Source: Escherichia virus ESCO5 | Taxonomy: Duplodnaviria; Heunggongvirae; Uroviricota; Caudoviricetes | Reading direction: 5' to 3' (one strand) | DNA: 64,000 nt | IMG/VR virus record: IMGVR_UViG_2974610597_000001 | In this document: in pieces, positions 22,812-60,112 of the stretch | Layout of the letters: the number at the start of each line of letters is the position of its first letter | How positions within the stretch are numbered: the first letter of the stretch is position 1 | Notes under the pieces: generated by a model | What the model saw: the letters and a program-made list of their open reading frames with translations, nothing else | Told to the model about the DNA's origin: nothing | Databases searched by the model: none | Position numbers and translations under genes: made by a program

Positions 22812-23075
22812 ATGGTTAAAGAGAAAAACGGTTTTAAAAAATTTATTCGCGGAATGTTCTGCACTTACCCCGGCAACGGGGTAAGCTCTACGAAAGTCTG
22901 GAACGCTGTAGGCATGTCGGTTATGACAGGCATGTTTATCTTTTTAGGAATAGAAAAAGAAATTCCTGAATGGATGGGTTGGGCTTTTGTTTTCATGATA
23001 ACCCCTTCTCGCCTCATGAAAAATCTTATTGATTTACGTTGGGGCAGATCACAATCTACCAAAGAGGATGACTAA
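22812..23075 (+). CDS. small two-TM membrane protein (holin-like candidate)
   Basis: 87 aa with two hydrophobic segments (MSVMTGMFIFLGI, WMGWAFVFMITP) and a charged C-terminus; RBS GAGG. Confidence 0.3.
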   Translation: MVKEKNGFKKFIRGMFCTYPGNGVSSTKVWNAVGMSVMTGMFIFLGIEKEIPEWMGWAFVFMITPSRLMKNLIDLRWGRSQSTKEDD

Positions 23076-26820: not shown

Positions 26821-27156
26821 ATGGAATTTCAAGAAGCATGGGGACTTGCAAAGGATGCAATAATCCCTTTAATCGGAGTCATCTGGTTCTTTTTCAAACA
26901 AAAAATGGATAAATTCGGCTCTGATCTTGAGGAAATGGAGGAGAAAAGTCGAGAGCTAGAGAAGAAGTTGGTCTTTGTTGAATCAACTTATGCAACTAAA
27001 GCCGAACTTACCCAGATGCTAAATCAAATTAACTCTACATTAATGGCAAATAATAACACTCTTGAGCAAAAAATTGAAAAGATTATGGACCTCAAGAATG
27101 CGACTATCCAAATGATGCTAGATGACATAGTTAAACGTACACAGAATAAGGGGTAA
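26821..27156 (+). CDS. membrane-anchored coiled-coil protein
   Basis: 111 aa; N-terminal hydrophobic helix (IIPLIGVIWFFF) then heptad-like coiled coil. Confidence 0.35.
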   Translation: MEFQEAWGLAKDAIIPLIGVIWFFFKQKMDKFGSDLEEMEEKSRELEKKLVFVESTYATKAELTQMLNQINSTLMANNNTLEQKIEKIMDLKNATIQMMLDDIVKRTQNKG

Positions 27157-27159
27157 TTA

Positions 27160-30100
27160 ATGGCAACATTCCCAACATATCCAGCAACGTCTCTCGAACA
27201 GGGCGTAGACCTGGTTATTTTCTCATCTAACCAACTCCATGATGTTATTAATGGAAGTGCTACAGAGAGTATTGAAACAGAATCAGGGTTGATACCAACC
27301 CTGAGAAAATCCCTTGTTGACAACTTTTTCTTTAAAAGCCCATTGGATTGGGCGCAAGGCACAAACGAAACAGTTTTTAACCAACTACGTTATTTTCAGA
27401 ATGGGGTATTGAGCGGTTATTATTATGCTCCTAATGCTACATTGGTAAACCCAATTCCTATGCAAGGGACTCCAGTAGGAGATAACAACTGGGTATTGTG
27501 GGGACTGAAGACAGAACAACTAGCAACAGAAGTCACCCCTTGGGTATATTCTGGTGCAACTGGTTATGAAACAGTAATCAGTCCTCCCTACATCTTTGAT
27601 AGTGCTATTGTTACAATCAATGGTGTTATTCAGGTTCTGGGAGAAGCTTTCCGCATAGAAGATAGTAAAATCATTTTATCTGAACCTTTGGGACATGATC
27701 CTGCAACAGGACTGCCAAACAAGCTTTTTGCCTATATTGGTAAAATCGTAGCTTCCGCAGATACAGATCCTAACTTAGAAAACCGTCTTGTCAGTTTAGA
27801 AACAAAAACTGAAGAACTGACAGAAAACATGGATAAAGTACCTTTACAAACTATTGCTCGTAAATACGGTTTGTTGGATGACGAAGTAGCTTACGCAACA
27901 GCGGGTCAATCATTAACAGGGATTAAAGCTCTGTATGATCCGGTAGCACAATCTTCCTACACATTGCCTCCTAACATCACAGGGACTTTAACATCTTTGT
28001 CTGTTTCTGGAGTAATGACTTATTCTGGCGGATCTGTAGATCTTTCTGCATTAGCTGTTGAACGTGGACAGTTTGTTCATTTGCCTACAAGCTTTGGTAA
28101 TAATGTAACTCTGACAGCTAAAAATCAGACGATTGGGCGTGGCGCTGGTCGCTATCGTTGGGCGGGAAGTTTACCAAAAAGTATTTTAGCTTCTGATACA
28201 TTGGAAACAAGTGGTGGATTAGGTCCAAATGCATGGGTTCTAACTAATACAGAAGGACTGTTAACCCCTCGTGGTGGAACATACAACGATTTATTCGATG
28301 TTGTCCGCTTATCAGAATTTGCTAACAATACAACTACCTATACCACACCAGAAGCAGCTTTCCAGGCGGCACTGTTAGCAGCAAAAGCTTCGAAAAGTAA
28401 GATTCTCGACGCTTACGGTTGTGATATGACTTTCACGACAAGCTCTTTTGATATTCAAGATATCACTTTGCGTGGGGGTGTGTTCCGTGGTCAACGCGAT
28501 TATCGTGTGCAAAATGCTACAGTAGAAGGCACAACTTTCCGTAACTCTCGTGTTATGTATTGGGGTGGTGCTGTGCGCATGTTCGATTGTTTGTGGGACG
28601 GTGCTCCTCGCGCAGGTCAAGTTGGTAGCTTGGTATTCCAAGGAAACCCAATATCAGGTACTTTTGAAATTGATAATTGTACTTTTAAAAACGGGTTATA
28701 TGGCATCCTTCAACAAGGAACAGGGGAACCAGTAACACGCGGTGTCTTCCGTAACCTTACCTTCATGGACATGCAAGGTGATGCAATAGAACTGAACGTC
28801 ATCAATAAACATTATGATGATGGTTGTGTGATTGAGAATATTTACCTGTCTAATATTGATGGGACTAACGCTCCTATTCCTCTGTCCAACTGGGGTATCG
28901 GTATTGGTGTGGCTGGTAAAGGACCATATGGTTACGGAATTCCTGATGATCAATATTGCAAGAATATTACAATTCGTAACGTTTTTGCAAAACGTTGTCG
29001 TCAGATTGTCCACGTAGAAGTTGGTCGTAATATTTCTATCGAAAACATTCATGGCGATCCAGATCAAACTGTATCTGTTGGGACAGGTTTGGCAACTGGC
29101 GCAGTTGTAATGTATGGAAGTAAAGATTTTACGATTGATGGTGTTTACGGAGAGCCTAAAACAGACGGTAGCACACTTGCAAGTAATATCCGTATGATTT
29201 ATTTGGAGTGGGGAACTAACGCAGTTCTGGATGAAGAGGGCAATCCGGTAGTTCCGGCACAGGGCAGACCTTCAAACCCATGCTTTAACTATTCTGTTCG
29301 TAACATTCACACCAAAACTGGGCGTGTTTTTGCAGGAGTTTCCGCTGGGCCAGGTTATGAAAACAGAGTCAGCTTTGAGAATATCCATTGTGCTGCGTTG
29401 CAGTTGTTCGGTGTAGCTTCTTGGCTTTCAATGTCTAACATCACCTGTAATATCTTTGATTGTGTTGGTCAACCTGAATCTGGTCCAGGGACATTTTATG
29501 ATGGATTCTTCCGTAGAGAAAAATCTGTTCTTGAGATGGTTAACGTAAACTGTTACCCAGATGGCAAGACTATGGTTACTGGTCGCCCACAGTGGAGCCG
29601 TTGCCGTTACTCTGATATTCATCGTGTCAACTGTAATGTTGAAGCTAATATGTATACCAATATCGCAGGTGGTATTGGAGCTATTGTAGGGACAACTGGC
29701 AAAGTTTATTACTTAGAGCCTAACCCTAGCCGAAACATTGATGGGATGCATTTCCCAACAGGGAAGGAGTTTGACAAAGGGGATATGATAGTCAAAGCGG
29801 ATAATACGTTCTTCCTTGTAACAACAAGTGGGGCATACATTCCAGATATCCCAGCTTTCGGTATTCGAGCTACACAAGCAGGAGATACCTTCCTGACACA
29901 GAACTTGACTCCTAATGGGACAGCAACAAACGCTTCTTGGTTGTATCACTATCCTCTGTCAGCAGGAACACGTATCCGTATTCCTGGTGCTGGTGTAGGT
30001 GGAGCAGATTTGGACACAGTTATTACTCGTGCACCTTATCAAGATAATGATACGTGGACTAACCCAGTTAAAATAGACATTGCAGATCCAATTGTAACGC

Positions 30101-40970: not shown

Positions 40971-41764
40971 TATTCCTCCTTTCTAATGTTCTCCAGAACC
41001 CACTGAAGTTCTTTTAAACTTAAACTTCTTACTCCCGCAGTTTTACTAGCTTCAGCTTTAAGTAACGGGTAAGCCTCAATGATACGCGTTTTAAGATCAG
41101 AAGTCAAGGCTTTTAAAAAATAGGTAGATGCTTCAGATAAAGAATCTTCTTCTGATAACACTTTACCTGCACTTGCTCCCGCTCTCCTAACGGCTATATC
41201 GTAGTCTTTACTGTTACCTAATACGAATAGTCGATTCTCTCCTAAAACAACGGGAGAACGCTTCTCGTTGCGTTTAATCCATATCTGGAATACACAAGGA
41301 ACATCCCAAGGTTCTCCATGAAGAATAAAAGATCCTTTTGGACATTCTTCTTCGTAAAGAAGATGCATGTGGGGATTTAGTTTGTGTGCAAAAAAGATTT
41401 TTTGAAATGTGCGAGGCAAGATAAAACAAATACCACCTTCGTTATCCAACATTTCAGCACAATGGTTAAAGAACTTAATGGCAAGACTAGCATTTTTTCC
41501 AAACGGAGGATTACCGACAAAAGCAGTTACACTACCAACAGACTCAACAGATTGAGCTAAAAAATCTGCCTCAATACAATCTTCAAACTTAGGGTCAATA
41601 TCAAAAGAAGTTATGTTTTTAAAACAAGAAGAGAAAGCTCCTTCTCCCGCAGATGGTTCTACGTAGTTAGCTTCCTCTCCAAAAATTTCTTTGATCTTAT
41701 CACATAAGAACCCCGCATAAGCGGGGTTAGTGTAATATTGATCAAGTGTGTTCAACTTGCTCAA
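40970..41764 (-). CDS. N6-adenine DNA methyltransferase
   Basis: AdoMet motif VEPSAGEGAF followed by catalytic motif GNPPFG. Confidence 0.65.
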   Translation of the reverse strand: MSKLNTLDQYYTNPAYAGFLCDKIKEIFGEEANYVEPSAGEGAFSSCFKNITSFDIDPKFEDCIEADFLAQSVESVGSVTAFVGNPPFGKNASLAIKFFNHCAEMLDNEGGICFILPRTFQKIFFAHKLNPHMHLLYEEECPKGSFILHGEPWDVPCVFQIWIKRNEKRSPVVLGENRLFVLGNSKDYDIAVRRAGASAGKVLSEEDSLSEASTYFLKALTSDLKTRIIEAYPLLKAEASKTAGVRSLSLKELQWVLENIRKEE

Positions 41765-41773
41765 TAGTCCTCC

Positions 41774-42205
41774 TTAGTTGTTAGCGAACTCAATAGTGAG
41801 GTCAACTTTACCATCGTCAGAAATAACCATGTTTTTGGTATTTTTAAAGATGATATCTACTTTACCTTCACTTACACGACAGAATGCAACACCATCTGCA
41901 ACTTTATCGATATAATATTTGTAAGAAAGAATACCCACTTTACTACGACCAGCACCTTTTGTGAAAGAAGGGCTTACATCGAAACGGAAACCTTTAGAAG
42001 AAACAACACGGTAAGAACGTCCAGTTGGAAGATGTTCAATAACAGAGACATTGTTCTCAACAACTTTTACAGCAAACTCTTCAGGATGATCCTCAACAAT
42101 CATATGTGGGATGGCAAATGCCAACGCTTGTTTGTGTTTAATAACACCAGCACCCAGAGCACCAGCAGCTTTAACTTTTGCATTCAGATCGATTGTCATA
42201 CGCAT
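41774..42205 (-). CDS. hypothetical protein
   Basis: 143-aa ORF, ATG after AGAGGAGAAG, directly downstream of a consensus promoter. Confidence 0.5.
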   Translation of the reverse strand: MRMTIDLNAKVKAAGALGAGVIKHKQALAFAIPHMIVEDHPEEFAVKVVENNVSVIEHLPTGRSYRVVSSKGFRFDVSPSFTKGAGRSKVGILSYKYYIDKVADGVAFCRVSEGKVDIIFKNTKNMVISDDGKVDLTIEFANN

Positions 42206-42238
42206 TTTTACTTCTCCTCTTGTTTGGTTGATGAGACA

Positions 42239-42267
42239 AGTATAAGTCCCTTCCGTAAAGTTGTCAA
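42239..42267 (-). promoter_or_regulatory. sigma70-like promoter (TTGACA - 17 bp - TATACT)
   Basis: On the - strand, -35 at 42267-42262 and -10 at 42244-42239. Confidence 0.5.
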
Positions 42268-42271
42268 CAGG

Positions 42272-42299
42272 TATTTTTAATAAAAGGGCCGAAGCCCTT
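42272..42299 (-). terminator. rho-independent terminator after primase-helicase
   Basis: On the - strand AAGGGC, TTCG loop, GCCCTT, then TTATT; stem overlaps the primase-helicase stop codon. Confidence 0.55.
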
Positions 42300-44076
42300 A
42301 ATAATTGCTATCCGTAGGCAAATTAGCAGGATTGTTGAAATACTGCTCTTTGTCATGCAGAGTTGCAGTTCTAATGTCATAGTAAAACTGCCCTGCCGGA
42401 CCAGTTTCCGAGAACTCACGGTTTTTTAGGATAAAGCAATGAGTCGTATTGCGTTCTACAGGGTCTTCAGCGGCTTTATCTCGTTCCAAAGCCAAGGTAA
42501 TACCAGCACCTTTAGCCAAGAAACTACTACCCATTGCATCGTCCTCTGTTAAGTGTTCATTGCCACCATTAGCCGATTTCTTAACGTGTGAGATGACGAT
42601 AATAGTTATAGCATACTCTTTCATGATGCGCTTCAACCATGTTGCTAACTCTTCCTGGGCTTGAACATCCATACCAGAAAGCAAATCAGAATAAGGGTCG
42701 ATAACAAGAATTGTTACTCCAAAATAGATGATCATCTCCAAAACTTTTTCTTTGATAGACTCCACATCTGCTCCACGATCATCACACACATAAAAACGTG
42801 GTGATCCATCTTCTCTTTCGTAAAAATCCAGGATTTTTTCTTTATTCTCTTCCAAGATTTGAAATTTCTCTTCCGGTGTTTTCCTGTGTAGAGGAATATG
42901 CAGGAACGAGGACAACAGGTTACGAGAATATTTCTTATAAGTTGCTTCCAAGGACAGAATACCTAGGGTATGTTCTGGGTGCGCAACAATAATATGTTTG
43001 GTGATCTCGTTCACCATCAAAGTTTTACCGATACTGGTCTTTGCCAGGATGACTGTAATCTCTTCCTCTACTAAACCACCACCCAGCATATTTGCAGCAA
43101 CACGCATAAAAGGAGGCAAGGTAATCATCTTGGATTCCAAGCATTCTAATGCAGCTTCATACAAGACATTAGAAGCATAAACACCTGCTGGGGTGTATAG
43201 ACGAGCACTCCAAAAAGCTTTTACGAAATCTTTTGCACGACCTTCTTCCAGATACTGATTGGCATCCTTAAGATCCATCTGCATACGATAGACTTTGTTA
43301 CGAGGCAGCACCTTAACAATATTTTCAAATGCCTCATTACCTGCTTTGTCGTTATCCATGCAAACAATAATCTTCTTAAATTTTTCAAAGAAAGGATATT
43401 GTGCCTGAACTTGTTTATACATACTGGTTTCACCAGTTGTGCCACTTACTACGGCTGGAAGCTCATATTTACTGTCCAAGTTTTCAGATAGCATTTGATA
43501 AGCTGCCAGAGCATCGTGTTCACCACCTGTAATTACAACAGTATGAGAACGGTCTGCAAAACGAATTTGTCCAAAAAGATCTACATCTTTACCTACTTGA
43601 CCAATAGGTTTACTGAAATCTTTAGGATGAATACGACGCTTAAAACCAACCAATTCTTTACCGATGGTAGTCGGATATAAACAACTTTCTACTACCATCT
43701 GATCTCCTTCCTGACGGTATTCATAACGAACACCATAGAAAGATGAAACTTTTTCTTTAATGCCTCGATAACCACGTGGGTTGGTTGATGTTTCTTGAAC
43801 AATTTTACGATGAATCTGTTTATTAAATTCCGAACCCACAATCTCCTCCTCTTCTTCTAAAACTTCACCATTTTCTCGTAACCATTCTACGCTAGGAATA
43901 GTGTATTCACACGCAAAGCACTTAGCACCTTTATGCTCTCCATTAGAATCTAATCCGTAAACCATCAGGTTATTACGAGAGCGATCCTTGCCATTTTTCA
44001 TGCAGCGCGGACAACCTGTATGTCCTTCCTTGCTAAGATCAACATCAAATCCATATTTAGTTATAATGTGCGACAC
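42298..44076 (-). CDS. bifunctional DNA primase-helicase (T7 gp4-like)
   Basis: N-terminal zinc ribbon (CPRC...CFAC), TOPRIM-like segment (VVITGGEHD, CMDNDKAGNEA), Walker A (AKTSIGKT); GTG start after AGGAGA. Confidence 0.85.
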   Translation of the reverse strand: MSHIITKYGFDVDLSKEGHTGCPRCMKNGKDRSRNNLMVYGLDSNGEHKGAKCFACEYTIPSVEWLRENGEVLEEEEEIVGSEFNKQIHRKIVQETSTNPRGYRGIKEKVSSFYGVRYEYRQEGDQMVVESCLYPTTIGKELVGFKRRIHPKDFSKPIGQVGKDVDLFGQIRFADRSHTVVITGGEHDALAAYQMLSENLDSKYELPAVVSGTTGETSMYKQVQAQYPFFEKFKKIIVCMDNDKAGNEAFENIVKVLPRNKVYRMQMDLKDANQYLEEGRAKDFVKAFWSARLYTPAGVYASNVLYEAALECLESKMITLPPFMRVAANMLGGGLVEEEITVILAKTSIGKTLMVNEITKHIIVAHPEHTLGILSLEATYKKYSRNLLSSFLHIPLHRKTPEEKFQILEENKEKILDFYEREDGSPRFYVCDDRGADVESIKEKVLEMIIYFGVTILVIDPYSDLLSGMDVQAQEELATWLKRIMKEYAITIIVISHVKKSANGGNEHLTEDDAMGSSFLAKGAGITLALERDKAAEDPVERNTTHCFILKNREFSETGPAGQFYYDIRTATLHDKEQYFNNPANLPTDSNY

Positions 44077-44088
44077 TTTGTTCTCCTG

Positions 44089-44367
44089 TTAAAATGGTTC
44101 GTTAGTCTCCATCATATATTCTGCTTCTAGTTCTTCCATGTGCTTTCTAAATTGGAAAGCAATTTCTGCTACAGTTACATTTAAATCTTTTTCAAAAACT
44201 TCTGTAGATCCTTCATAAAAACGAATACCGTCAATTAAAAGCCCTCCGTGGTAATCCCAATCGCTTTCACGAGAAAGTGGATTAGGTTCTTCATAATAGT
44301 AATCCACCTCCACAACCAAGGCTTTCCCGTTACGAGTGGTGTATTCAAAATCAAAAGTGTTAATCAT
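44089..44367 (-). CDS. hypothetical protein
   Basis: 92-aa ORF between primase-helicase and the glycosyltransferases. Confidence 0.4.
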   Translation of the reverse strand: MINTFDFEYTTRNGKALVVEVDYYYEEPNPLSRESDWDYHGGLLIDGIRFYEGSTEVFEKDLNVTVAEIAFQFRKHMEELEAEYMMETNEPF

Positions 44368-45311
44368 TATAGCTCCTCAAATAAAAGTCTACGACGCTCA
44401 TTCAACACATCAATGTGATAATGAGTCCTGACATACTTAGCTAATGCTAATCCTTTCTCCATGCAAACATCGGGAGCACTTAATAAGTATTCCGTAATAT
44501 CTTTCCACTCGGAAGGTGTTTCAGCAAAGAATAACAAATCTTTAAACTCTTGTGTATGATAATTCTCACGAGGAGAGCAGATTAAAGGTAAACCCTTAGC
44601 ACCTGCCTCAAGAATTTTAAGATTGCTTTTTGCATTATTAAACACGTTATCGATCAATGGTGCAAGACTGATTTGATGACCATCGTAAGATTCCATGTAG
44701 TAGGCATATGGTCTTACACCTTCATAAACACAAGTTGGTGCTACATTTTCCCTGATTAAAGACCATTCACGACTACTTAAAACTTCAGAATCCCTACGAA
44801 AACCACATATTGTAAGATCTTTACCAAAATCGGGCAAGATAGCCAAATCTTGTTTATGTGTTTCACTTCCAGCCCAGACTAATGGAGTTTTGGAGTAGCG
44901 ATCACGGGTCAACACAAATTGACCTTCATCGTAAGGAAGTCCATTAGGGATTATGTGCACATTATCATTGTATTGTGAAAGTTCAACTTGCAAGGCAGGT
45001 GTCGTAGTTGTAACAAGATCACTGTGCTCTAAAAACCATTTTAAATGTTCACGAATACCTGATTCAAAAATACCTTCTAACATGTGTCCTTTTGGAATAA
45101 CTAAAGAGTCATCCAAATCCATAACCATTTTAAAGCCCAGGTTTTTAAGGGCTAAAAAGCCCTCTTTACCTTTTGTTGGCACTCCGTTAAAAACGAAAAC
45201 GTTGTGTTTAGGTTGTGAAGAGAACTGCCTTGAGTAAGGCAGCACTACCCTATGGAAATCGCAGACACTATAATTGATTCCGTTACGATTGTCAAGAATT
45301 ATTTGTCCCAT
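44367..45311 (-). CDS. glycosyltransferase, GT-B-like (paralog 1)
   Basis: 314 aa; C-terminal NLKILEAGAKGLPLICS resembles the GT-B sugar-donor region; clearly paralogous to 45319..46305. Confidence 0.5.
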   Translation of the reverse strand: MGQIILDNRNGINYSVCDFHRVVLPYSRQFSSQPKHNVFVFNGVPTKGKEGFLALKNLGFKMVMDLDDSLVIPKGHMLEGIFESGIREHLKWFLEHSDLVTTTTPALQVELSQYNDNVHIIPNGLPYDEGQFVLTRDRYSKTPLVWAGSETHKQDLAILPDFGKDLTICGFRRDSEVLSSREWSLIRENVAPTCVYEGVRPYAYYMESYDGHQISLAPLIDNVFNNAKSNLKILEAGAKGLPLICSPRENYHTQEFKDLLFFAETPSEWKDITEYLLSAPDVCMEKGLALAKYVRTHYHIDVLNERRRLLFEEL

Positions 45312-45318
45312 ACTTCAC

Positions 45319-46305
45319 CTACAAACTTTCAATAACCTGGCGTCGCAATTCGTTTGCATCTGCCAGATTATAATGTGTTCGAACATGTTCCGCTAAGAAC
45401 AAGCCGCGATCTTCCCGATAGTTCGGATTGCGAAGAAGCTTAACAATTTCGTAATGCCATTCAGCTTTATTCTCTGCGTAAGCAACAGCGCGAGCATCTA
45501 CAGGGTTAAAATAAGGTAATACCTTAGAACAAACAATCGGAATACCTTTTGCCCCAGCTTCAAGGATTTTGAGATTACTTTTACAATTATTAAAATCATT
45601 GTCTACCAAAGGAGCTATAGCAATAGCATGACTTTCGTAAACACTCATGTAATTATCTAAATCTTTTACAGCAGCTTTATATTTGGCGTTTGGTAAATTT
45701 CTACGGATCTTAATCCACTCTTGCCCTGTGATACTCTGCGATGCTTCATATCCTGCAATAGTAAGAAGTTCATCATCGAAAGTATTAGAGACTAGTCGTA
45801 AATCGGGTTCGTGACTAGCACCGCCAGCCCATACAACAGGGGTACCGGATGAACGATCATTTGACAAAGTGAATTGTCCGCTATCAAAAGGAAGTGCATT
45901 TCGGATCACAACAACATTCCTATTTAAGTGACGGATCTTATATGCCAAATATTCCGTAGTCACAATGACCACATCGGCAAGCTTAACCATAGCTACAATA
46001 GCATGAGTGTTTGACTCATATAAACTTGCTAAATAATGTTCTGGATTAAGTTGGTAGAAATCATCTAAATCTACAACAATCTTAACACCTTGACGTTTCA
46101 GTGACAGAACATATTCTGCCCCTTTAGAATGAATACGGTTAAACACGACAACATCTTTCTTAGGCTGAAAATTATTGTTGTTAAATGGTATAACAATACG
46201 ATGATAATCACAACCACTGTGAGGTTTTGCATCAATTTTCAGTTTAGTCCATTTTTTATTTGACATGTGCCAGTGCCTCCTCATAAGAAATTCGGATTTT
46301 CCCAT
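45319..46305 (-). CDS. glycosyltransferase, GT-B-like (paralog 2)
   Basis: Shares CDYHRIV..., VVWAGGASHEPDL and NLKILEAGAKGIPIVCS with paralog 1; true start probably the internal Met near 46266. Confidence 0.5.
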   Translation of the reverse strand: MGKSEFLMRRHWHMSNKKWTKLKIDAKPHSGCDYHRIVIPFNNNNFQPKKDVVVFNRIHSKGAEYVLSLKRQGVKIVVDLDDFYQLNPEHYLASLYESNTHAIVAMVKLADVVIVTTEYLAYKIRHLNRNVVVIRNALPFDSGQFTLSNDRSSGTPVVWAGGASHEPDLRLVSNTFDDELLTIAGYEASQSITGQEWIKIRRNLPNAKYKAAVKDLDNYMSVYESHAIAIAPLVDNDFNNCKSNLKILEAGAKGIPIVCSKVLPYFNPVDARAVAYAENKAEWHYEIVKLLRNPNYREDRGLFLAEHVRTHYNLADANELRRQVIESL

Positions 46306-46939
46306 TTTTAATATCTTCTAAAGACGCTTTATATTCTTCCCAGTTAATGCCAATAGCAACTTCTTTCTCTTCTTTTGTCAGATTAGCAAAAGGCATAGGA
46401 TTGTTTCCAAAAACATCGTCTGGGTGGATATAAGCCATGATACGAAGTGGACAAGGTATTGCCTGAATGCCCTGATTCAAACCAGCAGCTTTCAAACGGT
46501 GTACCCATTCAGCATCTTCAAAACCATAGCCGTGAGTGTAAGGGCGGAAATAACCCATCTTCTCAACAACGGCACGAGAATACATTGCAAATTGACACAT
46601 TGCAAGTTCCCAGAGAATAACTTCTCCTTTACTCCCAACAACTTTATCTTTGAAATACTCCGGCATACCAAAGAAATCCCATCCTCCAGAGACAGCTTGA
46701 TCTACAAAATATGTTTCCCATCCCTCCATGATTGGGTAGCAATCGTCGTCAAAAATAAACCAATAATCATAACCTTCTTCATAAAACTGGTGCATAAGTT
46801 CATTCCTGGCGTAAGCTACACCTTTACGATCTGGATCGTTGAATACTCGAAAATCTGCATGTGGATCTGTTACAAGGTAGTCTTTAAGTGGACGGACACC
46901 TACAGTGATAACACCCACTCCGATTTTAATATTTTCCAT
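46256..46939 (-). CDS. glycosyltransferase, GT-A (family 2)-like
   Basis: 227 aa with DxD-type motif (IFDDDC) and GYGFEDAEW. Confidence 0.5.
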   Translation of the reverse strand: MENIKIGVGVITVGVRPLKDYLVTDPHADFRVFNDPDRKGVAYARNELMHQFYEEGYDYWFIFDDDCYPIMEGWETYFVDQAVSGGWDFFGMPEYFKDKVVGSKGEVILWELAMCQFAMYSRAVVEKMGYFRPYTHGYGFEDAEWVHRLKAAGLNQGIQAIPCPLRIMAYIHPDDVFGNNPMPFANLTKEEKEVAIGINWEEYKASLEDIKNGKIRISYEEALAHVK

Positions 46940-47719: not shown

Positions 47720-47927
47720 TTACAACCTCCTTAATAGCTACTGCACAGTTCTTACAAATACATTGACCTTTGTTCTTAGAAATTTCAATGTAAGGTTCAT
47801 TTTCGTTTTCTCCGCGTCGTGAATCGTATATTACAGTATTGAAGCAGACAACGCAAATGTTTTTAATAACAACATATTTTTGCACTTTTTGTTTAGTGCG
47901 AAAATTTACTTCAATGACTTCTCCCAT
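47697..47927 (-). CDS. small zinc-finger-like protein
   Basis: Start moved to the ATG at 47927 (TGATG overlap with upstream stop, GGGGAG RBS); Cys pairs CVVC and CICKNC. Confidence 0.4.
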   Translation of the reverse strand: MGEVIEVNFRTKQKVQKYVVIKNICVVCFNTVIYDSRRGENENEPYIEISKNKGQCICKNCAVAIKEVVNENAWDQ

Positions 47928-48211
47928 CAGTGAATCTCCCCTAAAATGTTGTTTTGAGACATTACTGCGGAGCATTCTACAGCATCATGAGTCCTTGCAA
48001 AACGCTCCCACAGCACAGCATCTACTTTAAGAACCACACAAGGATAAATACTGTCGTTGATCATATCAATGCTATATTTATCTACATCCTTTTCATCTTC
48101 CATAAACAAAGTAGCGTATGCTTCCAAATGTTTACGGGTGTAGTATACGTCCTCTTCGGTAAGACCGACAACCAGGTAACTTGCTACAACAACAGTATTA
48201 TCTTCTTGCAT
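47927..48211 (-). CDS. hypothetical protein
   Basis: Start moved to the ATG at 48211 preceded by GGGGAG. Confidence 0.4.
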   Translation of the reverse strand: MQEDNTVVVASYLVVGLTEEDVYYTRKHLEAYATLFMEDEKDVDKYSIDMINDSIYPCVVLKVDAVLWERFARTHDAVECSAVMSQNNILGEIH

Positions 48212-48212
48212 T

Positions 48213-48734
48213 TTAACTCCCCTTTGGTAGATAGAAACCATGCACTTTATCTCGATAAACAAGACGCATATCACGCTCCCAGTGTGTCCTTATATTCCGT
48301 TTCTTGAAGTATAGAGCACCTTTAGTAACATCTAAAACAGACCGCAATTCAGGAAAATGTTTCTCTAAATAAAGTAAACGCTCCGCTATTGCTTTTGCTT
48401 CCTGCCATTTATCTTTCTCTGTCACGTTAAAAGTTTTCGCATATGAGAATTGCCCTTTCTGGAACAAGACTCCCTTGACTGTGTTAGGGAAGTAGGCATC
48501 ATTTCTTCTGTTGATTACCACATTCCCAACGGCATTCATTCCTTTTTTACCCAGACCGCGACCTTCTGCGTAAATTGCACAAGCTAATAGAATTTTATCA
48601 TTATATTGCTTTGTACATTTGTGAACTACTTTAGCGGTTTTTACGTTTGCAGCTTCGGCTTTCGCCACAACAGGTGTAAATGTAAAAGCAGTTAAGGATA
48701 GTAACGCAACTGTTACAAAGTTTTTTATCAGCAA
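48213..48734 (-). CDS. secreted endolysin, SleB/CwlJ-type cell-wall hydrolase
   Basis: N-terminal signal peptide (ending AKAEA); hydrolase motif AIYAEGRGLGKKGMNAVGNVVINRRND...GQFS; TTG start after AGGAGG. Confidence 0.6.
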   Translation of the reverse strand: MLIKNFVTVALLSLTAFTFTPVVAKAEAANVKTAKVVHKCTKQYNDKILLACAIYAEGRGLGKKGMNAVGNVVINRRNDAYFPNTVKGVLFQKGQFSYAKTFNVTEKDKWQEAKAIAERLLYLEKHFPELRSVLDVTKGALYFKKRNIRTHWERDMRLVYRDKVHGFYLPKGS

Positions 48735-48766
48735 ATTTTGCCTCCTTTTTAAGTTAACGAATTTCT

Positions 48767-48795
48767 AGTATAACACGATAGAGGCTTTATTGCAA
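48767..48795 (-). promoter_or_regulatory. sigma70-like promoter (TTGCAA - 17 bp - TATACT) upstream of the endolysin
   Basis: On the - strand, -35 at 48795-48790 and -10 at 48772-48767. Confidence 0.45.
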
Positions 48796-49718: not shown

Positions 49719-49947
49719 TTCTTCCTCCTAATATTATCTCCGGTTTATATATACGAAGAATTATAGCATTTTCATTTTCTTTGTCAACCCATTCTTCATA
49801 ATCAGGCCATACATGAATCTCTACTCTACTTACAATATCTTCCATTCGCACAGTCCCAATGAAATACTCTTTGAGACTGCACATAATGAAAGCTTCTCTC
49901 TCGCGCCAATAATTTTCTATGACTTGAGAGGCAAGCTCGTCGATCAT
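49699..49947 (-). CDS. hypothetical protein
   Basis: 82-aa ORF. Confidence 0.4.
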   Translation of the reverse strand: MIDELASQVIENYWREREAFIMCSLKEYFIGTVRMEDIVSRVEIHVWPDYEEWVDKENENAIILRIYKPEIILGGRSVKLRN

Positions 49948-55461: not shown

Positions 55462-56535
55462 TTAAACAGCAGCTTCTTCTTTTTCAGGGAAGATAAAGCT
55501 TGCAATAACACCAAGAGATAATGTGCCTAGAACAATCATCAGACTTACGTTAGGGGAAATATCATGCGGGAGGAATGACCACTTGGCATGAAGTGTTTCA
55601 CCGAACGGGTGATACATAAGTTTAGCACCAACAAACACCAGAACCACAGCAACAGCTTTCTCTAAGTGAACCAGATATTTCACAGCTACACTTAACACAA
55701 AGAAAAGTGCACGTAAACCAAGAACAGCCATCAGCATTGCAGAATAAACTAGCAGAGGTTCTTGTGTCACACCGATTACAGCCGGAACTGAATCAAAAGA
55801 GAAGACAATATCTGTAAGCTCAATAACAAACACACAAAGAAGAGCAGGAGTTGCATATTTAATACCATTCTTAATGGTAATGAACTTTTCACCATCTAGT
55901 GCATTGTGCACAGGCAGAACTTTACCTACTAAACGAACAGCCCAATGCTTAGAGTAATCAATATCCTCTTCTTCGTCACCACCTTTGATGATAGCCACGG
56001 CAGACCAAGCTACAATCAAACCGAACAACACTTGGACCGACCAATGAAGGTTAAACAAAGCGGTCCCTGCTGCAACAAAAATACCTCGGAAGACAATGGC
56101 TCCTGCAATCCCCCAAAGTAAAATCTTATGTTGAAGATGTGTGCTCTTAATTCCAAAGCTTGCAAAAATTGCCATGAATACCATCAGGTTATCTACAGAA
56201 AGACTCTTTTCCAACACATAGCCACTTAGGAAAAGCGCGGCAAACTCTTTACCATGTTCTACCCAAATGAATGCGTAATATCCTAAAGCTAAAGCAATCC
56301 AAAAAACAGACCAAAGCAAAGCAGATTTAATTCCAATTTCTTTATTTTTACCATGTTCTACCCAAATGAATGCGTAATATCCTAAAGCTAAAGCAATCCA
56401 AAAAACAGACCAAAGCAAAGCAGATTTAATTCCAATTTCTTTATTCTCTTTATGACCAAAGAAATCGATACCAATAGACAATGCCAAAATACCAACTAAA
56501 ACAACTACATCAATAATTGGGAAACCGAGTTGCAT
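55462..56535 (-). CDS. terC: TerC-family integral membrane protein
   Basis: Multi-pass membrane protein with LEKSLSVDN and TDIVFSFDSVPAV motifs; contains an internal exact 33-aa duplication. Confidence 0.8.
   Translation of the reverse strand: MQLGFPIIDVVVLVGILALSIGIDFFGHKENKEIGIKSALLWSVFWIALALGYYAFIWVEHGKNKEIGIKSALLWSVFWIALALGYYAFIWVEHGKEFAALFLSGYVLEKSLSVDNLMVFMAIFASFGIKSTHLQHKILLWGIAGAIVFRGIFVAAGTALFNLHWSVQVLFGLIVAWSAVAIIKGGDEEEDIDYSKHWAVRLVGKVLPVHNALDGEKFITIKNGIKYATPALLCVFVIELTDIVFSFDSVPAVIGVTQEPLLVYSAMLMAVLGLRALFFVLSVAVKYLVHLEKAVAVVLVFVGAKLMYHPFGETLHAKWSFLPHDISPNVSLMIVLGTLSLGVIASFIFPEKEEAAV
56248..56445. repeat. perfect 99-bp tandem duplication (2 copies) inside terC
   Basis: 56248-56346 is identical to 56347-56445; in frame; CTCTTTA occurs at both 56245-56251 and 56446-56452. 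Confidence 0.95.
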
Positions 56536-56616: not shown

Positions 56617-56838
56617 TTATTTTGTTGAATGAGAGGAAAAGATTCCTCGTAATACCGCCAGAATAAACGAAACACAAACCACGGTCCAGAAGGTTACTGG
56701 GACAGTGATATCTGCATGACCCATAACTTCAGCAACATAGTTGTAAGCCAGCAACAGTAACCAAGCTGGAATCAAACTAAGCATAAAAGCAATAACAAAA
56801 AAGCTTACCACCGCAATAATACCTGCAAAAACACCCAT
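56617..56838 (-). CDS. small two-TM membrane protein
   Basis: 73 aa with two hydrophobic helices. Confidence 0.45.
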   Translation of the reverse strand: MGVFAGIIAVVSFFVIAFMLSLIPAWLLLLAYNYVAEVMGHADITVPVTFWTVVCVSFILAVLRGIFSSHSTK

Positions 56839-58165: not shown

Positions 58166-58814
58166 TTACAATTTCTCCTCTTTTAAGTTTCTCTAGTAAG
58201 TCGTTAGGGTTCTTAATATGACAGAAGTTAATCCCTATGTCAACACATTTACCATCAAATTCTTCGCTGTCCCCAACATGTAAAATCTCTTCAGCCTTCA
58301 AAGGAATGCTTGAATATGTGGCGGTCCTAACAAAGAATCTAGGATCTGGTTTACATAACAGATGTTCGTCTGAAAAATGCATAAATTCAAAACAATTCCA
58401 ACTGTCGAACATACAAGCACGACGCAAAATATCCCCAGATATAAAATTAGTATTGCTTTTAATACTAAGATCATATTTACCAGACAAGTATAGCAAACAA
58501 ACTGGCAAATCTAAAGCGATATGTGGAGGAAATTTAAGAAACCATTGCTCACAATCAAAACGCATTTGTGCAGATTCTACAGGGGTTAAACCTATCTTTC
58601 TTCCCAACATATTCCATGCATATGCTACACCTTCTGCACACCCATTTAGTGCAGCATTATCCATAATTTCTTTGGCATCTTTATATGCTTCTTTTGCCGC
58701 ACGTTCAGACATTCTACCATATGTAGCAATAGTGTGCGTACGTGCATCTGCATAGTTTTGATTGGCAGAAATAAGAGTATTCCATACATCAAAAGAAATA
58801 TGTTTTATTGTCAT
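58158..58814 (-). CDS. HAD-superfamily phosphatase-like protein
   Basis: N-terminal ISFDVWNTL (motif I-like), LSIKSNT, C-terminal HVGDSEEFD; start moved to internal ATG at 58814. Confidence 0.5.
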   Translation of the reverse strand: MTIKHISFDVWNTLISANQNYADARTHTIATYGRMSERAAKEAYKDAKEIMDNAALNGCAEGVAYAWNMLGRKIGLTPVESAQMRFDCEQWFLKFPPHIALDLPVCLLYLSGKYDLSIKSNTNFISGDILRRACMFDSWNCFEFMHFSDEHLLCKPDPRFFVRTATYSSIPLKAEEILHVGDSEEFDGKCVDIGINFCHIKNPNDLLEKLKRGEIVNA

Positions 58815-58815
58815 A

Positions 58816-59421
58816 CTAGGCCCACCACGCATCAAGATTTAAGTTACTGTCTACCACAACTTGTTCTATGTGGTAGCCTTTTATCTGTATCCCACTGTTC
58901 AAGAGCATATCATATGCTTCATTGAAACGCAACTTATCTTCTGCGGAATATAAGCGAGCATTGTAAAATCGGTAATCAAGTTCTTCAGCATTAGAAGAAA
59001 TACGGAAGAAGTTTGTTTCTACTTCAGGATCACTTGCTGAAGTTTTAATGTGAACTTCTCCGTAATTTTCTTTGCTTAGATCCATGAAAAGAACACAGGC
59101 AACATGTTTAAACATTCGTTCCAGTTTGTAACGAACAACATTGAAACCTGCGTTCTCAAGTTTTTCTACACATTGCAACATTAACGTAGTGTCGAGATCG
59201 CTTTGATACTTTGTTAACATACGATCACGTTGAGACTTTGTATCCCGATGTAAATCAATTGTTGTGCATTTGGCACCAATGATCTTAGCTGCTTTCATCA
59301 ACTCTTCAGAACTAACGTTAGATAAAGTAAGATGAAAATGGGCTTTCCACACTTTTTTAGCAGGGACACCAAAAGATTTATCCCCACTATTCGGCATGTT
59401 GACTACTACACTATGTTGCAT
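58816..59421 (-). CDS. hypothetical protein
   Basis: 201 aa, ATG after GAGGAG. Confidence 0.45.
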   Translation of the reverse strand: MQHSVVVNMPNSGDKSFGVPAKKVWKAHFHLTLSNVSSEELMKAAKIIGAKCTTIDLHRDTKSQRDRMLTKYQSDLDTTLMLQCVEKLENAGFNVVRYKLERMFKHVACVLFMDLSKENYGEVHIKTSASDPEVETNFFRISSNAEELDYRFYNARLYSAEDKLRFNEAYDMLLNSGIQIKGYHIEQVVVDSNLNLDAWWA

Positions 59422-59436
59422 TACTTATCTCCTCAC

Positions 59437-59628
59437 TTAAAATGGAAGTCTTTGAAGTTCATCTCCTCCGATATCAAGTAATTTAGCAACATCTCGATCA
59501 GAAAGCAACTCTTTTCTTTGTAAAATATCCACAAGGGTTGCAAGAATGTCCTTAACGTCCCGATCACTGTTCTTCAAAAGTTCTCCTGCCGTCCCTACCC
59601 TATCTCCTACAGCAAAATATGTAACCAT
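59437..59628 (-). CDS. hypothetical small protein
   Basis: Start at ATG 59628 after TAGGAGG. Confidence 0.35.
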   Translation of the reverse strand: MVTYFAVGDRVGTAGELLKNSDRDVKDILATLVDILQRKELLSDRDVAKLLDIGGDELQRLPF

Positions 59629-59641
59629 AAAACCTCCTACG

Positions 59642-60112
59642 CTAATCTGATTGCCAACCACTCGCCGTTTTGGTCCATAATCTTTGATTATCTGACCCTC
59701 TGAAAGGTTTTGTGGTTGGATTGTTTATTTCATACTTTCCGTCTACAATAATGTCAACAAGATTTTTAATATACAAAGGCACTTCCTCAAAAGTATATCC
59801 TGTATACACCATTATATCTTTGCTTGACCCATAAACGTCTCTAACCTTTTCTATAAGGTTTTTAACATTGTAAATATTCTGCGGATCTAATGGTTCTCCT
59901 CCTAAAATTGTTAAACCTTTTACAAACGGTCTTGACAAATCTTTTAAAACTTGCTCTACATTTTCGTTAGTGAACGGTTTCCCATAAGAATAAGACCAGG
60001 CTTTCTGGTTAAAACAGCCACGACAACCGTGGCTACAACCACTAACCCAGAGGGAGCACCTAACTCCCTCACCATTAATAAGATCTACAGGTTCATATCC
60101 TGCAAAATTCAA
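59642..60112 (-). CDS. nrdG: anaerobic ribonucleotide reductase activating protein (radical SAM)
   Basis: CSHGCRGC motif; 156 aa; immediately downstream of nrdD with overlapping stop/start. Confidence 0.85.
   Translation of the reverse strand: MNFAGYEPVDLINGEGVRCSLWVSGCSHGCRGCFNQKAWSYSYGKPFTNENVEQVLKDLSRPFVKGLTILGGEPLDPQNIYNVKNLIEKVRDVYGSSKDIMVYTGYTFEEVPLYIKNLVDIIVDGKYEINNPTTKPFRGSDNQRLWTKTASGWQSD

What the first reader, a model, noticed from the sequence alone, without database searches (positions are those of the whole stretch)
48213..48734. Signal-peptide endolysin with its own promoter and no adjacent holin or spanin
The SleB/CwlJ-type hydrolase has a cleavable-looking signal peptide, implying Sec-dependent export. 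It is preceded by a consensus promoter and flanked by Ter-like and Zn-finger genes rather than a holin. Candidate small membrane proteins lie elsewhere (22812-23075, 26821-27156, 56617-56838), so lysis control may be non-canonical and possibly tied to the TerC/TelA membrane proteins.
Basis: partly seen in the sequence, partly recalled or inferred. Interest (0 to 1): 0.4.

Follow-up and report, generated by a model that had tools for sequence, protein, structure and literature searches.

The report
Secreted SleB-type wall hydrolase of phage ESCO5
This is the already annotated 'SleB-like cell wall hydrolase' gene of Escherichia phage ESCO5: it really carries a secretion signal and its own promoter, but the phage also has an ordinary T4-type lysozyme and spanins elsewhere, so it is probably an accessory wall-cutting enzyme, not evidence of a new way of lysing cells.

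Summary
The window is Escherichia phage ESCO5 (Phapecoctavirus), and the ORF at 48213-48734 (minus strand) is its gene gp207, annotated 'endolysin / putative cell wall hydrolase SleB'.

**Confirmed**
- It has a Hydrolase_2 domain and a SleB catalytic fold, with an invariant catalytic-position Glu57.
- It has a Sec-type leader, and the -3/-1 signal-peptidase pattern is conserved among relatives.
- A hairpin, a TTGCAA-17-TGnTATACT promoter, a GGAGG ribosome-binding site and a TTG start are conserved in five relatives.
- No holin or spanin lies next to it.

**Not supported**
- ESCO5 is not short of canonical lysis parts. Outside the window it has a full-length T4 e-type lysozyme (gp080) and an overlapped Rz/Rz1 spanin pair beside the terminase gene. 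Its lysis genes are dispersed, as in T4.
- The link to TerC/TelA is lineage-specific gene order only. A hairpin and a promoter separate the gene from terD. In the phage collection, 1223 records carry such a hydrolase but only 146 carry TerD.

**Literature**
Published work already notes signal-peptide SleB-like hydrolases beside a separate endolysin in rV5-like phages and Phapecoctavirus. None has tested the function.

**Best reading**
It is a weakly translated, Sec-exported periplasmic lytic transglycosylase that acts as an accessory to the classical endolysin. The finding is ordinary and already known. Its true role is still open.

The parts
48213..48734 (-). CDS gp207: 173-aa pre-protein (19.7 kDa, pI 9.98) made of a signal peptide plus a SleB-type (Hydrolase_2) catalytic domain. 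It starts with TTG.
48660..48734 (-). Codons 1-25, the predicted Sec signal peptide MLIKNFVTVALLSLTAFTFTPVVAKA. The predicted signal peptidase I cut is after Ala25 (AKA|EA). An overlapping AEA|AN site two residues later is also possible.
   Evidence: Sequence rules (n-, h- and c-regions). The -3/-1 pattern is conserved in alignment A1. pLDDT is low (52-56) for residues 1-30. Cleavage has not been verified experimentally or with SignalP.
48564..48566 (-). Codon of Glu57 in the motif AIYAEGRG, which aligns with the YGESRGE motif of SleB. It is the presumed catalytic acid.
   Evidence: Invariant in 46 diverse homologues. Aligned to the 4FET/4F55 motif. The catalytic role of this Glu in SleB comes from my own knowledge of the SleB structure papers.
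48741..48745 (-). Shine-Dalgarno sequence GGAGG, 6 nt upstream of the TTG start.
   Evidence: conserved in 5 of 5 relatives
48767..48795 (-). Sigma-70-type promoter: -35 TTGCAA (48795-48790), 17-nt spacer, and extended -10 TGT-TATACT (TG at 48775-48774, hexamer 48772-48767).
   Evidence: scan; conserved in five phages with no indel between the elements; same architecture as other extended -10 promoters of this genome
48796..48815 (-). GC-rich hairpin GAGGGGG-AGAAAT-CCCCCTC directly after the terD stop codon and abutting the -35 element. It is a probable, possibly leaky, terminator of the Ter operon.
   Evidence: -16.9 kcal/mol, z = -3.5; -14 to -19 kcal/mol in four relatives; stem kept with sequence changes. 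The U-tract is weak in ESCO5, so the terminator scan did not list it.
47927..48211 (-). gp208, a soluble acidic 94-aa protein of unknown function that starts 1 nt after the gp207 stop codon. gp207 is therefore the first gene of a longer operon: gp208, the Cys4 protein gp209, gp210, four glycosyltransferases, then primase/helicase.

Best explanation
gp207 is a Sec-exported, signal-peptidase-processed periplasmic murein hydrolase with the SleB-type lytic transglycosylase fold.

Proposed sequence of events:
- Host RNA polymerase transcribes the gene from a conserved extended -10 promoter that follows the terminator hairpin of the Ter operon.
- Translation starts at a weak TTG codon behind a strong Shine-Dalgarno sequence, so output is probably kept low.
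- The leader (residues 1-25) takes the protein through SecYEG and is cut off after AKA.
- This releases a basic 17-kDa enzyme (Glu57 as catalytic acid, with a possible Cys40-Cys52 disulfide) that reaches the peptidoglycan without needing a holin.

It is not the phage's only muralytic enzyme. A classical cytoplasmic T4 e-type lysozyme (gp080) and an Rz/Rz1 spanin pair are encoded elsewhere in the genome. gp207 is therefore most likely an accessory wall-cutting enzyme, either a second, holin-independent contribution to lysis or a conditioning of the sacculus before lysis. It is not the centre of a new lysis mechanism.

Shown: the domain, the fold, the leader features, and the conservation of the promoter, ribosome-binding site and start codon, plus the co-existence with gp080 and the spanins.
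Inferred: cleavage of the leader, periplasmic activity, low expression, and the accessory role.
For: - Identity and annotation.
- Domain, fold and invariant Glu57/Asn75/Arg76.
- Leader: architecture and -3/-1 conservation; 107 of 120 family members have a leader. Homologues in rV5, 4MG, pEa_SNUABM_55 and the T5-like phage Stitch all have AXA-type leaders. The leader is not part of the confident fold. Cys40 and Cys52 are invariant in the subfamily, which fits an oxidising compartment.
- Start codon: the non-ATG start is conserved. It is TTG in ESCO5, VEcB, phi1_175008, two metagenomic relatives, 4MG and pEa55, and GTG in rV5.
- Promoter and hairpin conservation.
- Second muralytic enzyme: gp080 matches Phage_lysozyme PF00959 and is 46.7% identical to T4 e. 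It is present at 60% identity or more in 133 phage records, against 132 for gp207.
- Spanins.
- Literature: two lytic proteins in a Phapecoctavirus (PMC10793346). The SleB-like protein with a signal peptide is found in all Vequintavirinae genera and is toxic when expressed in E. coli, reported as data not shown (PMC7344957). rV5-like phages have a separate, purified endolysin, LysECP26 (PMC9728275). PVP-SE1 and BME3 have a lysozyme plus the SleB-like hydrolase (PMC12210895).
Against: - No experiment on this protein or any close homologue was found, so its activity, its cleavage and its contribution to lysis are all untested.
- SignalP could not be run. One paper on Phapecoctavirus genomes states that no signal peptides were detected, although it lists a 173-aa, pI 9.98 'endolysin' (PMC10698182).
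- The timing of expression cannot be read from the sequence. Extended -10 sigma-70 promoters occur in early regions and also upstream of the spanin/terminase and tail genes.
- A freely soluble, active transglycosylase in the periplasm needs some restraint, and I cannot identify what that is.
- It remains possible that gp207 is the main endolysin and gp080 has another role.
Confidence: 0.55

Rival explanations
1. SAR (signal-anchor-release) endolysin. The N-terminal segment is not cleaved and holds the enzyme inactive in the inner membrane until a pinholin or holin collapses the membrane potential. The enzyme then releases, refolds and degrades the wall.
For: The uncharged stretch is 20 residues long and 40% Gly/Ala/Ser/Thr, which by crude hydropathy is not clearly different from P1 Lyz or R21. 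The h-region is unusually well conserved within the subfamily. Small 2-TMD ORFs lie directly downstream of the homologues in 4MG and pEa_SNUABM_55, and also in Certrevirus, where one was proposed as a class II holin (PMC7344957). A SAR mechanism would explain how early export is tolerated.
Against: The AXA site is conserved with a variable -2 residue, and Pro sits five residues before the cut. The truly hydrophobic core is only about 15 residues long. The leader contains no Cys, so it is not the P1 Lyz type. The leader is not integrated into the predicted fold. No membrane ORF lies next to the gene in any Stephanstirmvirinae relative. ESCO5 has no homologue of the Vequintavirinae small membrane ORFs.
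Confidence: 0.15
2. gp207 is the phage's principal endolysin (the RefSeq label). It is Sec-exported as in Oenococcus phage fOg44 Lys44 and is activated when a still unidentified holin dissipates the proton-motive force. On this reading the T4-like lysozyme gp080 has another function.
For: RefSeq and PHROG label it 'endolysin'. The SleB-like gene is conserved across Stephanstirmvirinae and all Vequintavirinae genera, whereas the other muralytic gene differs between genera: T4 e-like here, lysozyme-like in rV5-like phages, an M15 peptidase in CB7 and Septuagintavirus. A homologue in Cronobacter phage CR3 is said to be implicated in lysis (PMC7344957).
Against: gp080 is a full-length orthologue of the T4 endolysin and retains the T4 E11/D20/T26 motif region. 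It is as conserved in the subfamily as gp207. In related phages it is the other enzyme that has been purified and shown to be lytic (LysECP26). Phage endolysins are known to be swapped often, so variability does not argue against an endolysin role. The same SleB-like gene also sits in T5-like phages. Those have their own endolysin, the T5 L-alanyl-D-glutamate peptidase cited, but I did not check Stitch for it.
Confidence: 0.15
3. The hydrolase is functionally part of the Ter (TerC/TelA/TerD/vWA-TerF) envelope-stress module, with lysis timing controlled through these membrane proteins.
For: The order TerC ... TelA ... vWA-TerF ... TerD - hydrolase is conserved in every Stephanstirmvirinae-like relative examined, down to 58% protein identity. 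In Vequintavirinae the homologue instead sits next to rIIA, another membrane-energetics and lysis-timing gene. That is a suggestive parallel.
Against: A stable hairpin and a separate promoter lie between terD and the hydrolase in all five relatives. TerD is found in 146 phage records, of which 132 are Stephanstirmvirinae, while the hydrolase is found in 1223. Homologues in rV5, 4MG, pEa55, Stitch and JG004 have no Ter neighbours. Nothing in the hydrolase sequence suggests a metal or a Ter partner.
Confidence: 0.07
4. The protein is not a lysis protein at all. It is a periplasmic wall-remodelling enzyme used during infection, for example to loosen the sacculus or to interfere with superinfection or envelope-linked host defences.
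For: In four unrelated lineages the gene lies in replication or nucleotide-metabolism modules, not with structural or lysis genes (PMC12210895). It has a weak start codon and is co-transcribed with glycosyltransferases.
Against: Genome position is a weak guide, since T4 e also lies among non-late genes. No sequence feature points to a specific non-lytic role. Expression of the CB7 homologue is toxic, as expected of a lytic enzyme.
Confidence: 0.08

Closest known systems
SleB / CwlJ spore-cortex lytic enzymes of Bacillus (Pfam Hydrolase_2, PF07486; structures 4F55, 4FET)
   Same: Same catalytic domain and fold. The Glu of the Y-x-E-x-R-G motif and the N-R and Q-F motifs are conserved. SleB is also made with a signal peptide.
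   Different: There is no N-terminal PG_binding_1 domain, only a leader plus the catalytic domain. The gene is encoded by a virulent coliphage, and the substrate must be ordinary Gram-negative murein rather than muramic-lactam cortex. Identity is only about 26%.
SleB-like signal-peptide hydrolases of Vequintavirinae (rV5, PVP-SE1/4MG, CR3_087, CB7_83) and other Stephanstirmvirinae (phi92-like VEcB)
   Same: Same family and architecture, same type of leader, and non-ATG start codons. They co-exist with a separate endolysin and with spanins placed next to the large terminase gene.
   Different: Identity to the Vequintavirinae proteins is only 33-36%. Those genes sit next to rIIA and/or a small 2-TMD ORF rather than next to a Ter cluster.
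Secreted signal-peptide endolysin Lys44 of Oenococcus phage fOg44
   Same: A predicted bona fide cleavable Sec signal on a phage muralytic enzyme, so export does not depend on a holin.
   Different: Lys44 is the phage's only endolysin and acts in a Gram-positive host. Here a classical endolysin is also present, and the periplasm of E. coli is the destination.
SAR endolysins (P1 Lyz, phage 21 R21)
   Same: N-terminal Sec-dependent export of a muralytic enzyme in a Gram-negative host.
   Different: SAR domains are uncleaved, about 20 residues or longer, Gly/Ala-rich, and take part in activation. Here there is a conserved AXA site, a shorter core, no Cys in the leader and no adjacent pinholin.
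T4 lysis system (e, t, rI, pseT.3/pseT.2 dispersed in the genome)
   Same: ESCO5 has an e orthologue (gp080), and its lysis genes are scattered rather than grouped in a cassette.
   Different: No homologue of holin T was found. T4 has no secreted SleB-type enzyme.

Membership tests
Hydrolase_2 (SleB/CwlJ) cell wall hydrolase family, PF07486 | Match to the family HMM above the curated threshold | tested here: met
   64.1 bits against a cut-off of 27, E=2e-17
Hydrolase_2 (SleB/CwlJ) cell wall hydrolase family, PF07486 | SleB catalytic-domain fold | tested here: met
   AF2 model with pLDDT 88.4; Foldseek against 4F55/4FET gives probability 1.0 and target-normalised TM 0.72-0.75. The profile matches the 4FET/4F55 sequences at E about 1e-30.
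Hydrolase_2 (SleB/CwlJ) cell wall hydrolase family, PF07486 | Conserved catalytic Glu in the Y-x-E-x-R-G motif | tested here: met
   Glu57 is invariant in 46 homologues and aligns with YGESRGE of SleB.
Hydrolase_2 (SleB/CwlJ) cell wall hydrolase family, PF07486 | Lytic transglycosylase activity on peptidoglycan | not testable with these tools
   Needs purified protein and muropeptide analysis.
SleB proper (two-domain spore cortex-lytic enzyme) | N-terminal PG_binding_1 domain preceding the catalytic domain | tested here: not met
   Pfam finds only Hydrolase_2 at residues 62-168, and residues 1-35 are a leader plus a linker. The protein shares SleB's catalytic domain but is not a SleB orthologue.
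Sec-exported, signal-peptidase-I-processed proteins | n-region with positive charge, h-region of about 10-15 residues, c-region with small residues at -3 and -1 | tested here: met
   MLIK / NFVTVALLSLTAFTF / TPVVAKA|EA. Across relatives -1 is Ala, -3 is A/G/V and -2 is variable. This rests on sequence rules only; neither SignalP nor an experiment was available.
SAR endolysins | Uncleaved, weakly hydrophobic N-terminal transmembrane domain that is released on depolarisation | tested here: inconclusive
   Crude hydropathy does not separate it from known SAR domains. The conserved AXA site, the Pro and the short core argue for cleavage.
SAR endolysins | Partner pinholin or holin gene adjacent | tested here: not met
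   The downstream genes gp208-210 are soluble and of unknown function. The same holds in VEcB, phi1_175008 and the metagenomic relatives.
Canonical holin-dependent endolysin in a lysis cassette | Cytoplasmic enzyme (no export signal) encoded next to a holin and spanins | tested here: not met
   A leader is present. The spanins are about 52 kb away beside the large terminase gene. No holin family match was found among the membrane ORFs.
Ter (tellurite-resistance-like) stress module | Co-transcription and co-occurrence with TerC/TelA/TerD genes | tested here: not met
   A hairpin plus a separate promoter lie between terD and the gene. There are 1223 phage records with the hydrolase against 146 with TerD.

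The most novel reading that the evidence does not exclude
The secreted SleB-type transglycosylase is kept alongside a classical endolysin, with a weak start codon in most examined homologues, in more than a thousand phage genomes (Stephanstirmvirinae, Vequintavirinae, T5-like phages, Pakpunavirus). On this reading it is not a redundant endolysin. It has a distinct, holin-independent function, either pre-lytic conditioning of the sacculus or a second lysis route. Its danger to the infected cell is held in check by neighbouring membrane-energetics genes: the Ter cluster in Stephanstirmvirinae and rIIA/rIIB in Vequintavirinae.
Probability: 0.2. Interest if true: 0.55.

Novelty: already known. Interest (0 to 1): 0.2.

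Why it matters
As it stands, the finding matters little. The gene is annotated in the public record, and the family's signal peptide and its separation from the other lysis genes are already noted in genome papers.

The residual interest is practical and modest. Databases label this protein 'endolysin' in more than a thousand phage genomes that also carry a classical endolysin, and nobody has tested what a freely secreted lytic transglycosylase does during infection or how the cell survives it until lysis. A knockout and a cleavage assay in an E. coli phage would settle this, and would correct or confirm a widely propagated annotation.

Tried and rejected
- **Holin next to the spanins.** I looked at the ORFs upstream of the spanin pair (record 58412-59086). 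They are hydrophilic, so they are not holins.
- **Holin by homology.** I searched ESCO5 for homologues of the small 2-TMD ORFs that follow the gene in 4MG and pEa55, of T4 holin T, and of rV5 rIIA, MoxR and its neighbours. Nothing was significant.
- **Holin by family match.** gp229 has a weak Rz-like match at E=0.0012 and no lipobox, despite its 'lipoprotein' label.
- **'hol-like chemotaxis' gp113.** It is a soluble coiled-coil protein, not a holin.
- **Timing from promoter class.** I tried to infer early versus late expression. Extended -10 sigma-70 promoters occur in the early region and also upstream of the tRNA, spanin/terminase, tail and replication genes, so no conclusion is possible.
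- **Automatic cleavage-site search.** My crude -3/-1 search was not discriminating, because it also finds sites inside h-regions. I therefore rely on the aligned c-region instead.
- **Separating SAR from signal peptide by hydropathy.** The crude numbers were inconclusive.
- **Literature.** I found no experimental work on this protein or on its timing of expression. Oliveira et al. 2013 (PMC3624390) is not held.
- **Neighbouring genes.** PHROG scans of gp208-210 and of the two small ORFs between vWA-TerF and TerD all returned unknown function.

Full report
**What the window is.** A 4-kb stretch around the finding is 100% identical to Escherichia phage ESCO5 (KX664695.3 / NC_047776.2), a member of Stephanstirmvirinae, genus Phapecoctavirus, with a 149,268-bp genome. 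The window corresponds to record positions 63035-127034, so record coordinate = window coordinate + 63034. This holds up to window position 56346. There the window carries an extra 99 bp that the RefSeq record lacks.

**The observation.** The ORF at 48213-48734 lies on the minus strand, encodes 173 aa and starts with TTG. It is HOR27_gp207, annotated 'endolysin; putative cell wall hydrolase SleB'.
- It matches Pfam Hydrolase_2 (PF07486) at E=2e-17, with 64.1 bits against a cut-off of 27.
- A profile built from 46 diverse homologues finds only the SleB catalytic domains of B. anthracis and B. cereus (4FET, 4F55), at E about 1e-30.
- In that alignment Glu57, Asn75 and Arg76 are invariant. Glu57 aligns with the Glu of SleB's YGESRGE motif.
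- An AlphaFold2 model (mean pLDDT 88.4) matches 4F55/4FET with Foldseek probability 1.0 and target-normalised TM 0.72-0.75. No other solved fold matches.

The hydrolase assignment is therefore solid. The protein has only the catalytic domain. It lacks SleB's N-terminal peptidoglycan-binding domain.

**The signal peptide.** Residues 1-25 read MLIK / NFVTVALLSLTAFTF / TPVVAKA, followed by EAANVK.
- This is a short positively charged n-region, a hydrophobic core of about 15 residues, a Pro, and an A-x-A site. From memory, the c-region closely resembles that of E. coli PhoA (...LFTPVTKA|R).
- In 15 relatives with 56-90% identity, the residue at -1 is Ala and the residue at -3 is Ala, Gly or Val. 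The residue at -2 is K, Q, I, T, A, H or Y. That pattern is what selection on a signal peptidase I site would produce.
- There is no lipobox and no twin-arginine motif.
- Residues 1-30 have low model confidence (pLDDT 52-56) and are not part of the predicted fold.
- Homologues in rV5, 4MG, pEa_SNUABM_55 and the T5-like phage Stitch all carry similar leaders ending in VVA|A, VLA|K, AMA|T and SHA|T. JG004 has an N-terminal transmembrane segment instead.
- Of 120 family members retrieved from metagenomes, 107 have a hydrophobic N-terminal leader.
- Cys40 and Cys52 are invariant in the subfamily and are also present in the Vequintavirinae proteins. This fits a periplasmic, disulfide-forming location, though that is an inference.

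I could not run SignalP. One paper states that no signal peptides were found in Phapecoctavirus proteins, while listing a 173-aa, pI 9.98 'endolysin' (PMC10698182). Another paper reports a signal peptide on the Certrevirus homologue (PMC7344957). My sequence analysis agrees with the second paper.

**Expression signals.** The 96-nt gap between the terD stop codon (48831) and the TTG start contains four elements, in order:
- a GC-rich hairpin at 48815-48796 (-16.9 kcal/mol, z = -3.5);
- directly abutting it, a TTGCAA -35 element, a 17-nt spacer and TGT-TATACT (48795-48767);
- GGAGG at 48745-48741;
- the TTG start.

On its own the promoter is unremarkable. It matches 9 of 12 positions plus TG, and it is one of 58 such sites in 16 kb against 43.5 +/- 6.4 in shuffles. 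'Consensus promoter' therefore overstates it. However, all elements are conserved in five phages whose hydrolases are 58-76% identical. These elements are the hairpin (with sequence changes that keep the stem), the -35, the exact spacing, TGnTAnAAT, the Shine-Dalgarno sequence and the TTG start.

The non-ATG start extends to the Vequintavirinae, with TTG in 4MG and pEa55 and GTG in rV5. This suggests selection for low translation.

gp207 is the first gene of a longer operon. gp208 starts 1 nt after its stop codon. It is followed by the Cys4 protein gp209, then gp210, four glycosyltransferases and the primase/helicase.

Promoters with the same extended -10 architecture occur in the early region and also upstream of the tRNA, spanin/terminase, tail and SSB genes. 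The timing of expression therefore cannot be inferred.

- Outside the window ESCO5 encodes gp080 (record 29570-30070, 166 aa, no leader). It matches Pfam Phage_lysozyme and is 46.7% identical to T4 lysozyme e over the full length. Its sequence [26 protein letters not shown] corresponds to the T4 E11/D20/T26 region.
- gp080 is as conserved in the subfamily as gp207. It occurs at 60% identity or more in 133 phage records, against 132 for gp207.
- An overlapped i-spanin/o-spanin pair lies at record 59070-59697, directly upstream of the large terminase gene and about 52 kb from gp207. Kongari et al. 2018 list this pair for phAPEC8 (PMC6139136).
- No holin is annotated, and I could not identify one.

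So the lysis genes are dispersed, as in T4. A classical endolysin and spanins are nevertheless present.

**The Ter link.**
- The order TerC ... TelA ... vWA-TerF ... TerD - hydrolase is conserved throughout Stephanstirmvirinae-like genomes.
- A hairpin and a promoter separate the hydrolase from terD in all of them.
- The hydrolase family is found in 1223 phage records, whereas TerD is found in 146. Of those 146, 132 are Stephanstirmvirinae and the rest are Caulobacter and Brevundimonas jumbo phages.
- In rV5 the homologue is followed by rIIA. In 4MG and pEa55 it is followed by a small 2-TMD ORF. In Stitch and JG004 it sits among early or nucleotide-metabolism genes.
- ESCO5 has no rIIA homologue.

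The Ter neighbourhood is therefore lineage-specific gene order. The parallel between Ter here and rII in Vequintavirinae, both linked to membrane integrity, is suggestive. It is no more than that.

**What is already published.**
[quoted passage not shown] It also says the CR3 homologue is implicated in lysis, notes spanins next to the terminase, and notes the absence of a classic cassette (PMC7344957).
- A Phapecoctavirus genome announcement reports two lytic proteins, one PF00959 and one PF07486 (PMC10793346).
- BME3 and PVP-SE1 are described as having a lysozyme plus a SleB-like hydrolase in the replication module (PMC12210895).
- In rV5-like phages the other enzyme, LysECP26, has been purified and shown to be lytic (PMC9728275).
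- I found no experimental study of the SleB-like protein itself.

**Most likely mechanism.** gp207 is a weakly translated, Sec-exported protein that signal peptidase cleaves, releasing a periplasmic lytic transglycosylase. It reaches the murein without a holin and acts as an accessory to the holin-dependent T4-type lysozyme. The spanins then complete disruption of the envelope. The rival explanations are given with their evidence in their own section:
- a SAR endolysin (0.15);
- the principal endolysin of the Lys44 type (0.15);
- a non-lytic remodelling role (0.08);
- a functional Ter partnership (0.07).

What restrains a soluble periplasmic transglycosylase until lysis remains unexplained.

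**Verdict.** The feature is an already annotated member of a known and widespread family. Interest is low (0.2). The one open question worth an experiment is what this secreted enzyme does alongside a classical endolysin.

Noticed in passing
window 56248-56346 and 56347-56445 (minus-strand terC gene, about 55462-56535): There is a perfect 99-bp tandem duplication, in frame, inside the TerC gene. It repeats 33 aa (NKEIGIKSALLWSVFWIALALGYYAFIWVEHGK), which is about one transmembrane helix. It is absent from NC_047776.2, so it may be an assembly or version difference or a real variant. One extra helix would flip the topology of the rest of TerC.
   Followed up: partly
outside the window: NC_047776.2 29570-30070 (L003): gp080 is a full-length T4 e-type lysozyme (46.7% identical to T4 e) lying among nucleotide-metabolism genes. 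It is the likely classical endolysin of the phage, yet RefSeq labels gp207, not gp080, as 'endolysin'.
   Followed up: yes
window 26821-27156 (gp229): The gene is annotated 'lipoprotein' but has no lipobox Cys. It encodes a 111-aa protein with one short N-terminal hydrophobic segment and a coiled-coil tail, directly after the tail-fibre assembly gene. It has a weak PHROG match to Rz-like spanins (E=0.0012). It could be a holin, antiholin or spanin-like protein.
   Followed up: partly
window 22812-23075 (gp234): This is an 87-aa protein inside the tail/baseplate operon, with a basic N-terminus, one or two hydrophobic segments and a charged C-terminus (RWGRSQSTKEDD). It has the general look of a class II holin and would be expressed with late genes. 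PHROG 1322 labels it only 'membrane protein'.
   Followed up: partly
window 49760-49787, minus strand: A perfect sigma-70 consensus promoter (TTGACA-16-TATAAT, with TG) lies inside the coding region of gp204, upstream of gp205 and terD. The Ter genes therefore seem to be served by internal promoters.
   Followed up: no
L001 about 41340-46640 (record 141.3-146.6 kb, outside the window): This is a series of strong extended -10 promoters (TTGACA-N14-TGnTAnnnT). Most of them are followed within about 10 nt by a conserved CACATAGGGCGG... GC-rich hairpin. It looks like a repeated early-promoter/leader cassette.
   Followed up: no
phage collection records MG065650.1, MG065689.1, MG065682.1, MG065644.1, MG065645.1: Records named 'Campylobacter phage' (B15, A110a, A112b, A147, A145) carry genes that closely match those of E. 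coli Phapecoctavirus or Justusliebigvirus phages (78-100% identity) or give the same match as rV5 records. The host labels are probably wrong, or the records are contaminants.
   Followed up: no
L004 3974-6453; L006 3995-4703; L009 2998-5745: In Vequintavirinae the SleB-like gene is followed by a small 2-TMD ORF (4MG 57 aa, pEa55 76 aa) and/or by rIIA (annotated in rV5; in pEa55 a 660-aa ORF of the same size). This is a possible lysis-timing cluster that has no counterpart in ESCO5.
   Followed up: partly
record 58798-58827 (L002 8798-8827, outside the window): The operon containing the spanins and the large terminase gene is preceded by a promoter with the same unusual TTGCAA -35 element and extended -10 as the hydrolase promoter. 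Most other strong promoters in the genome use TTGACA. This is a possible shared regulation class, based on only three examples.
   Followed up: no
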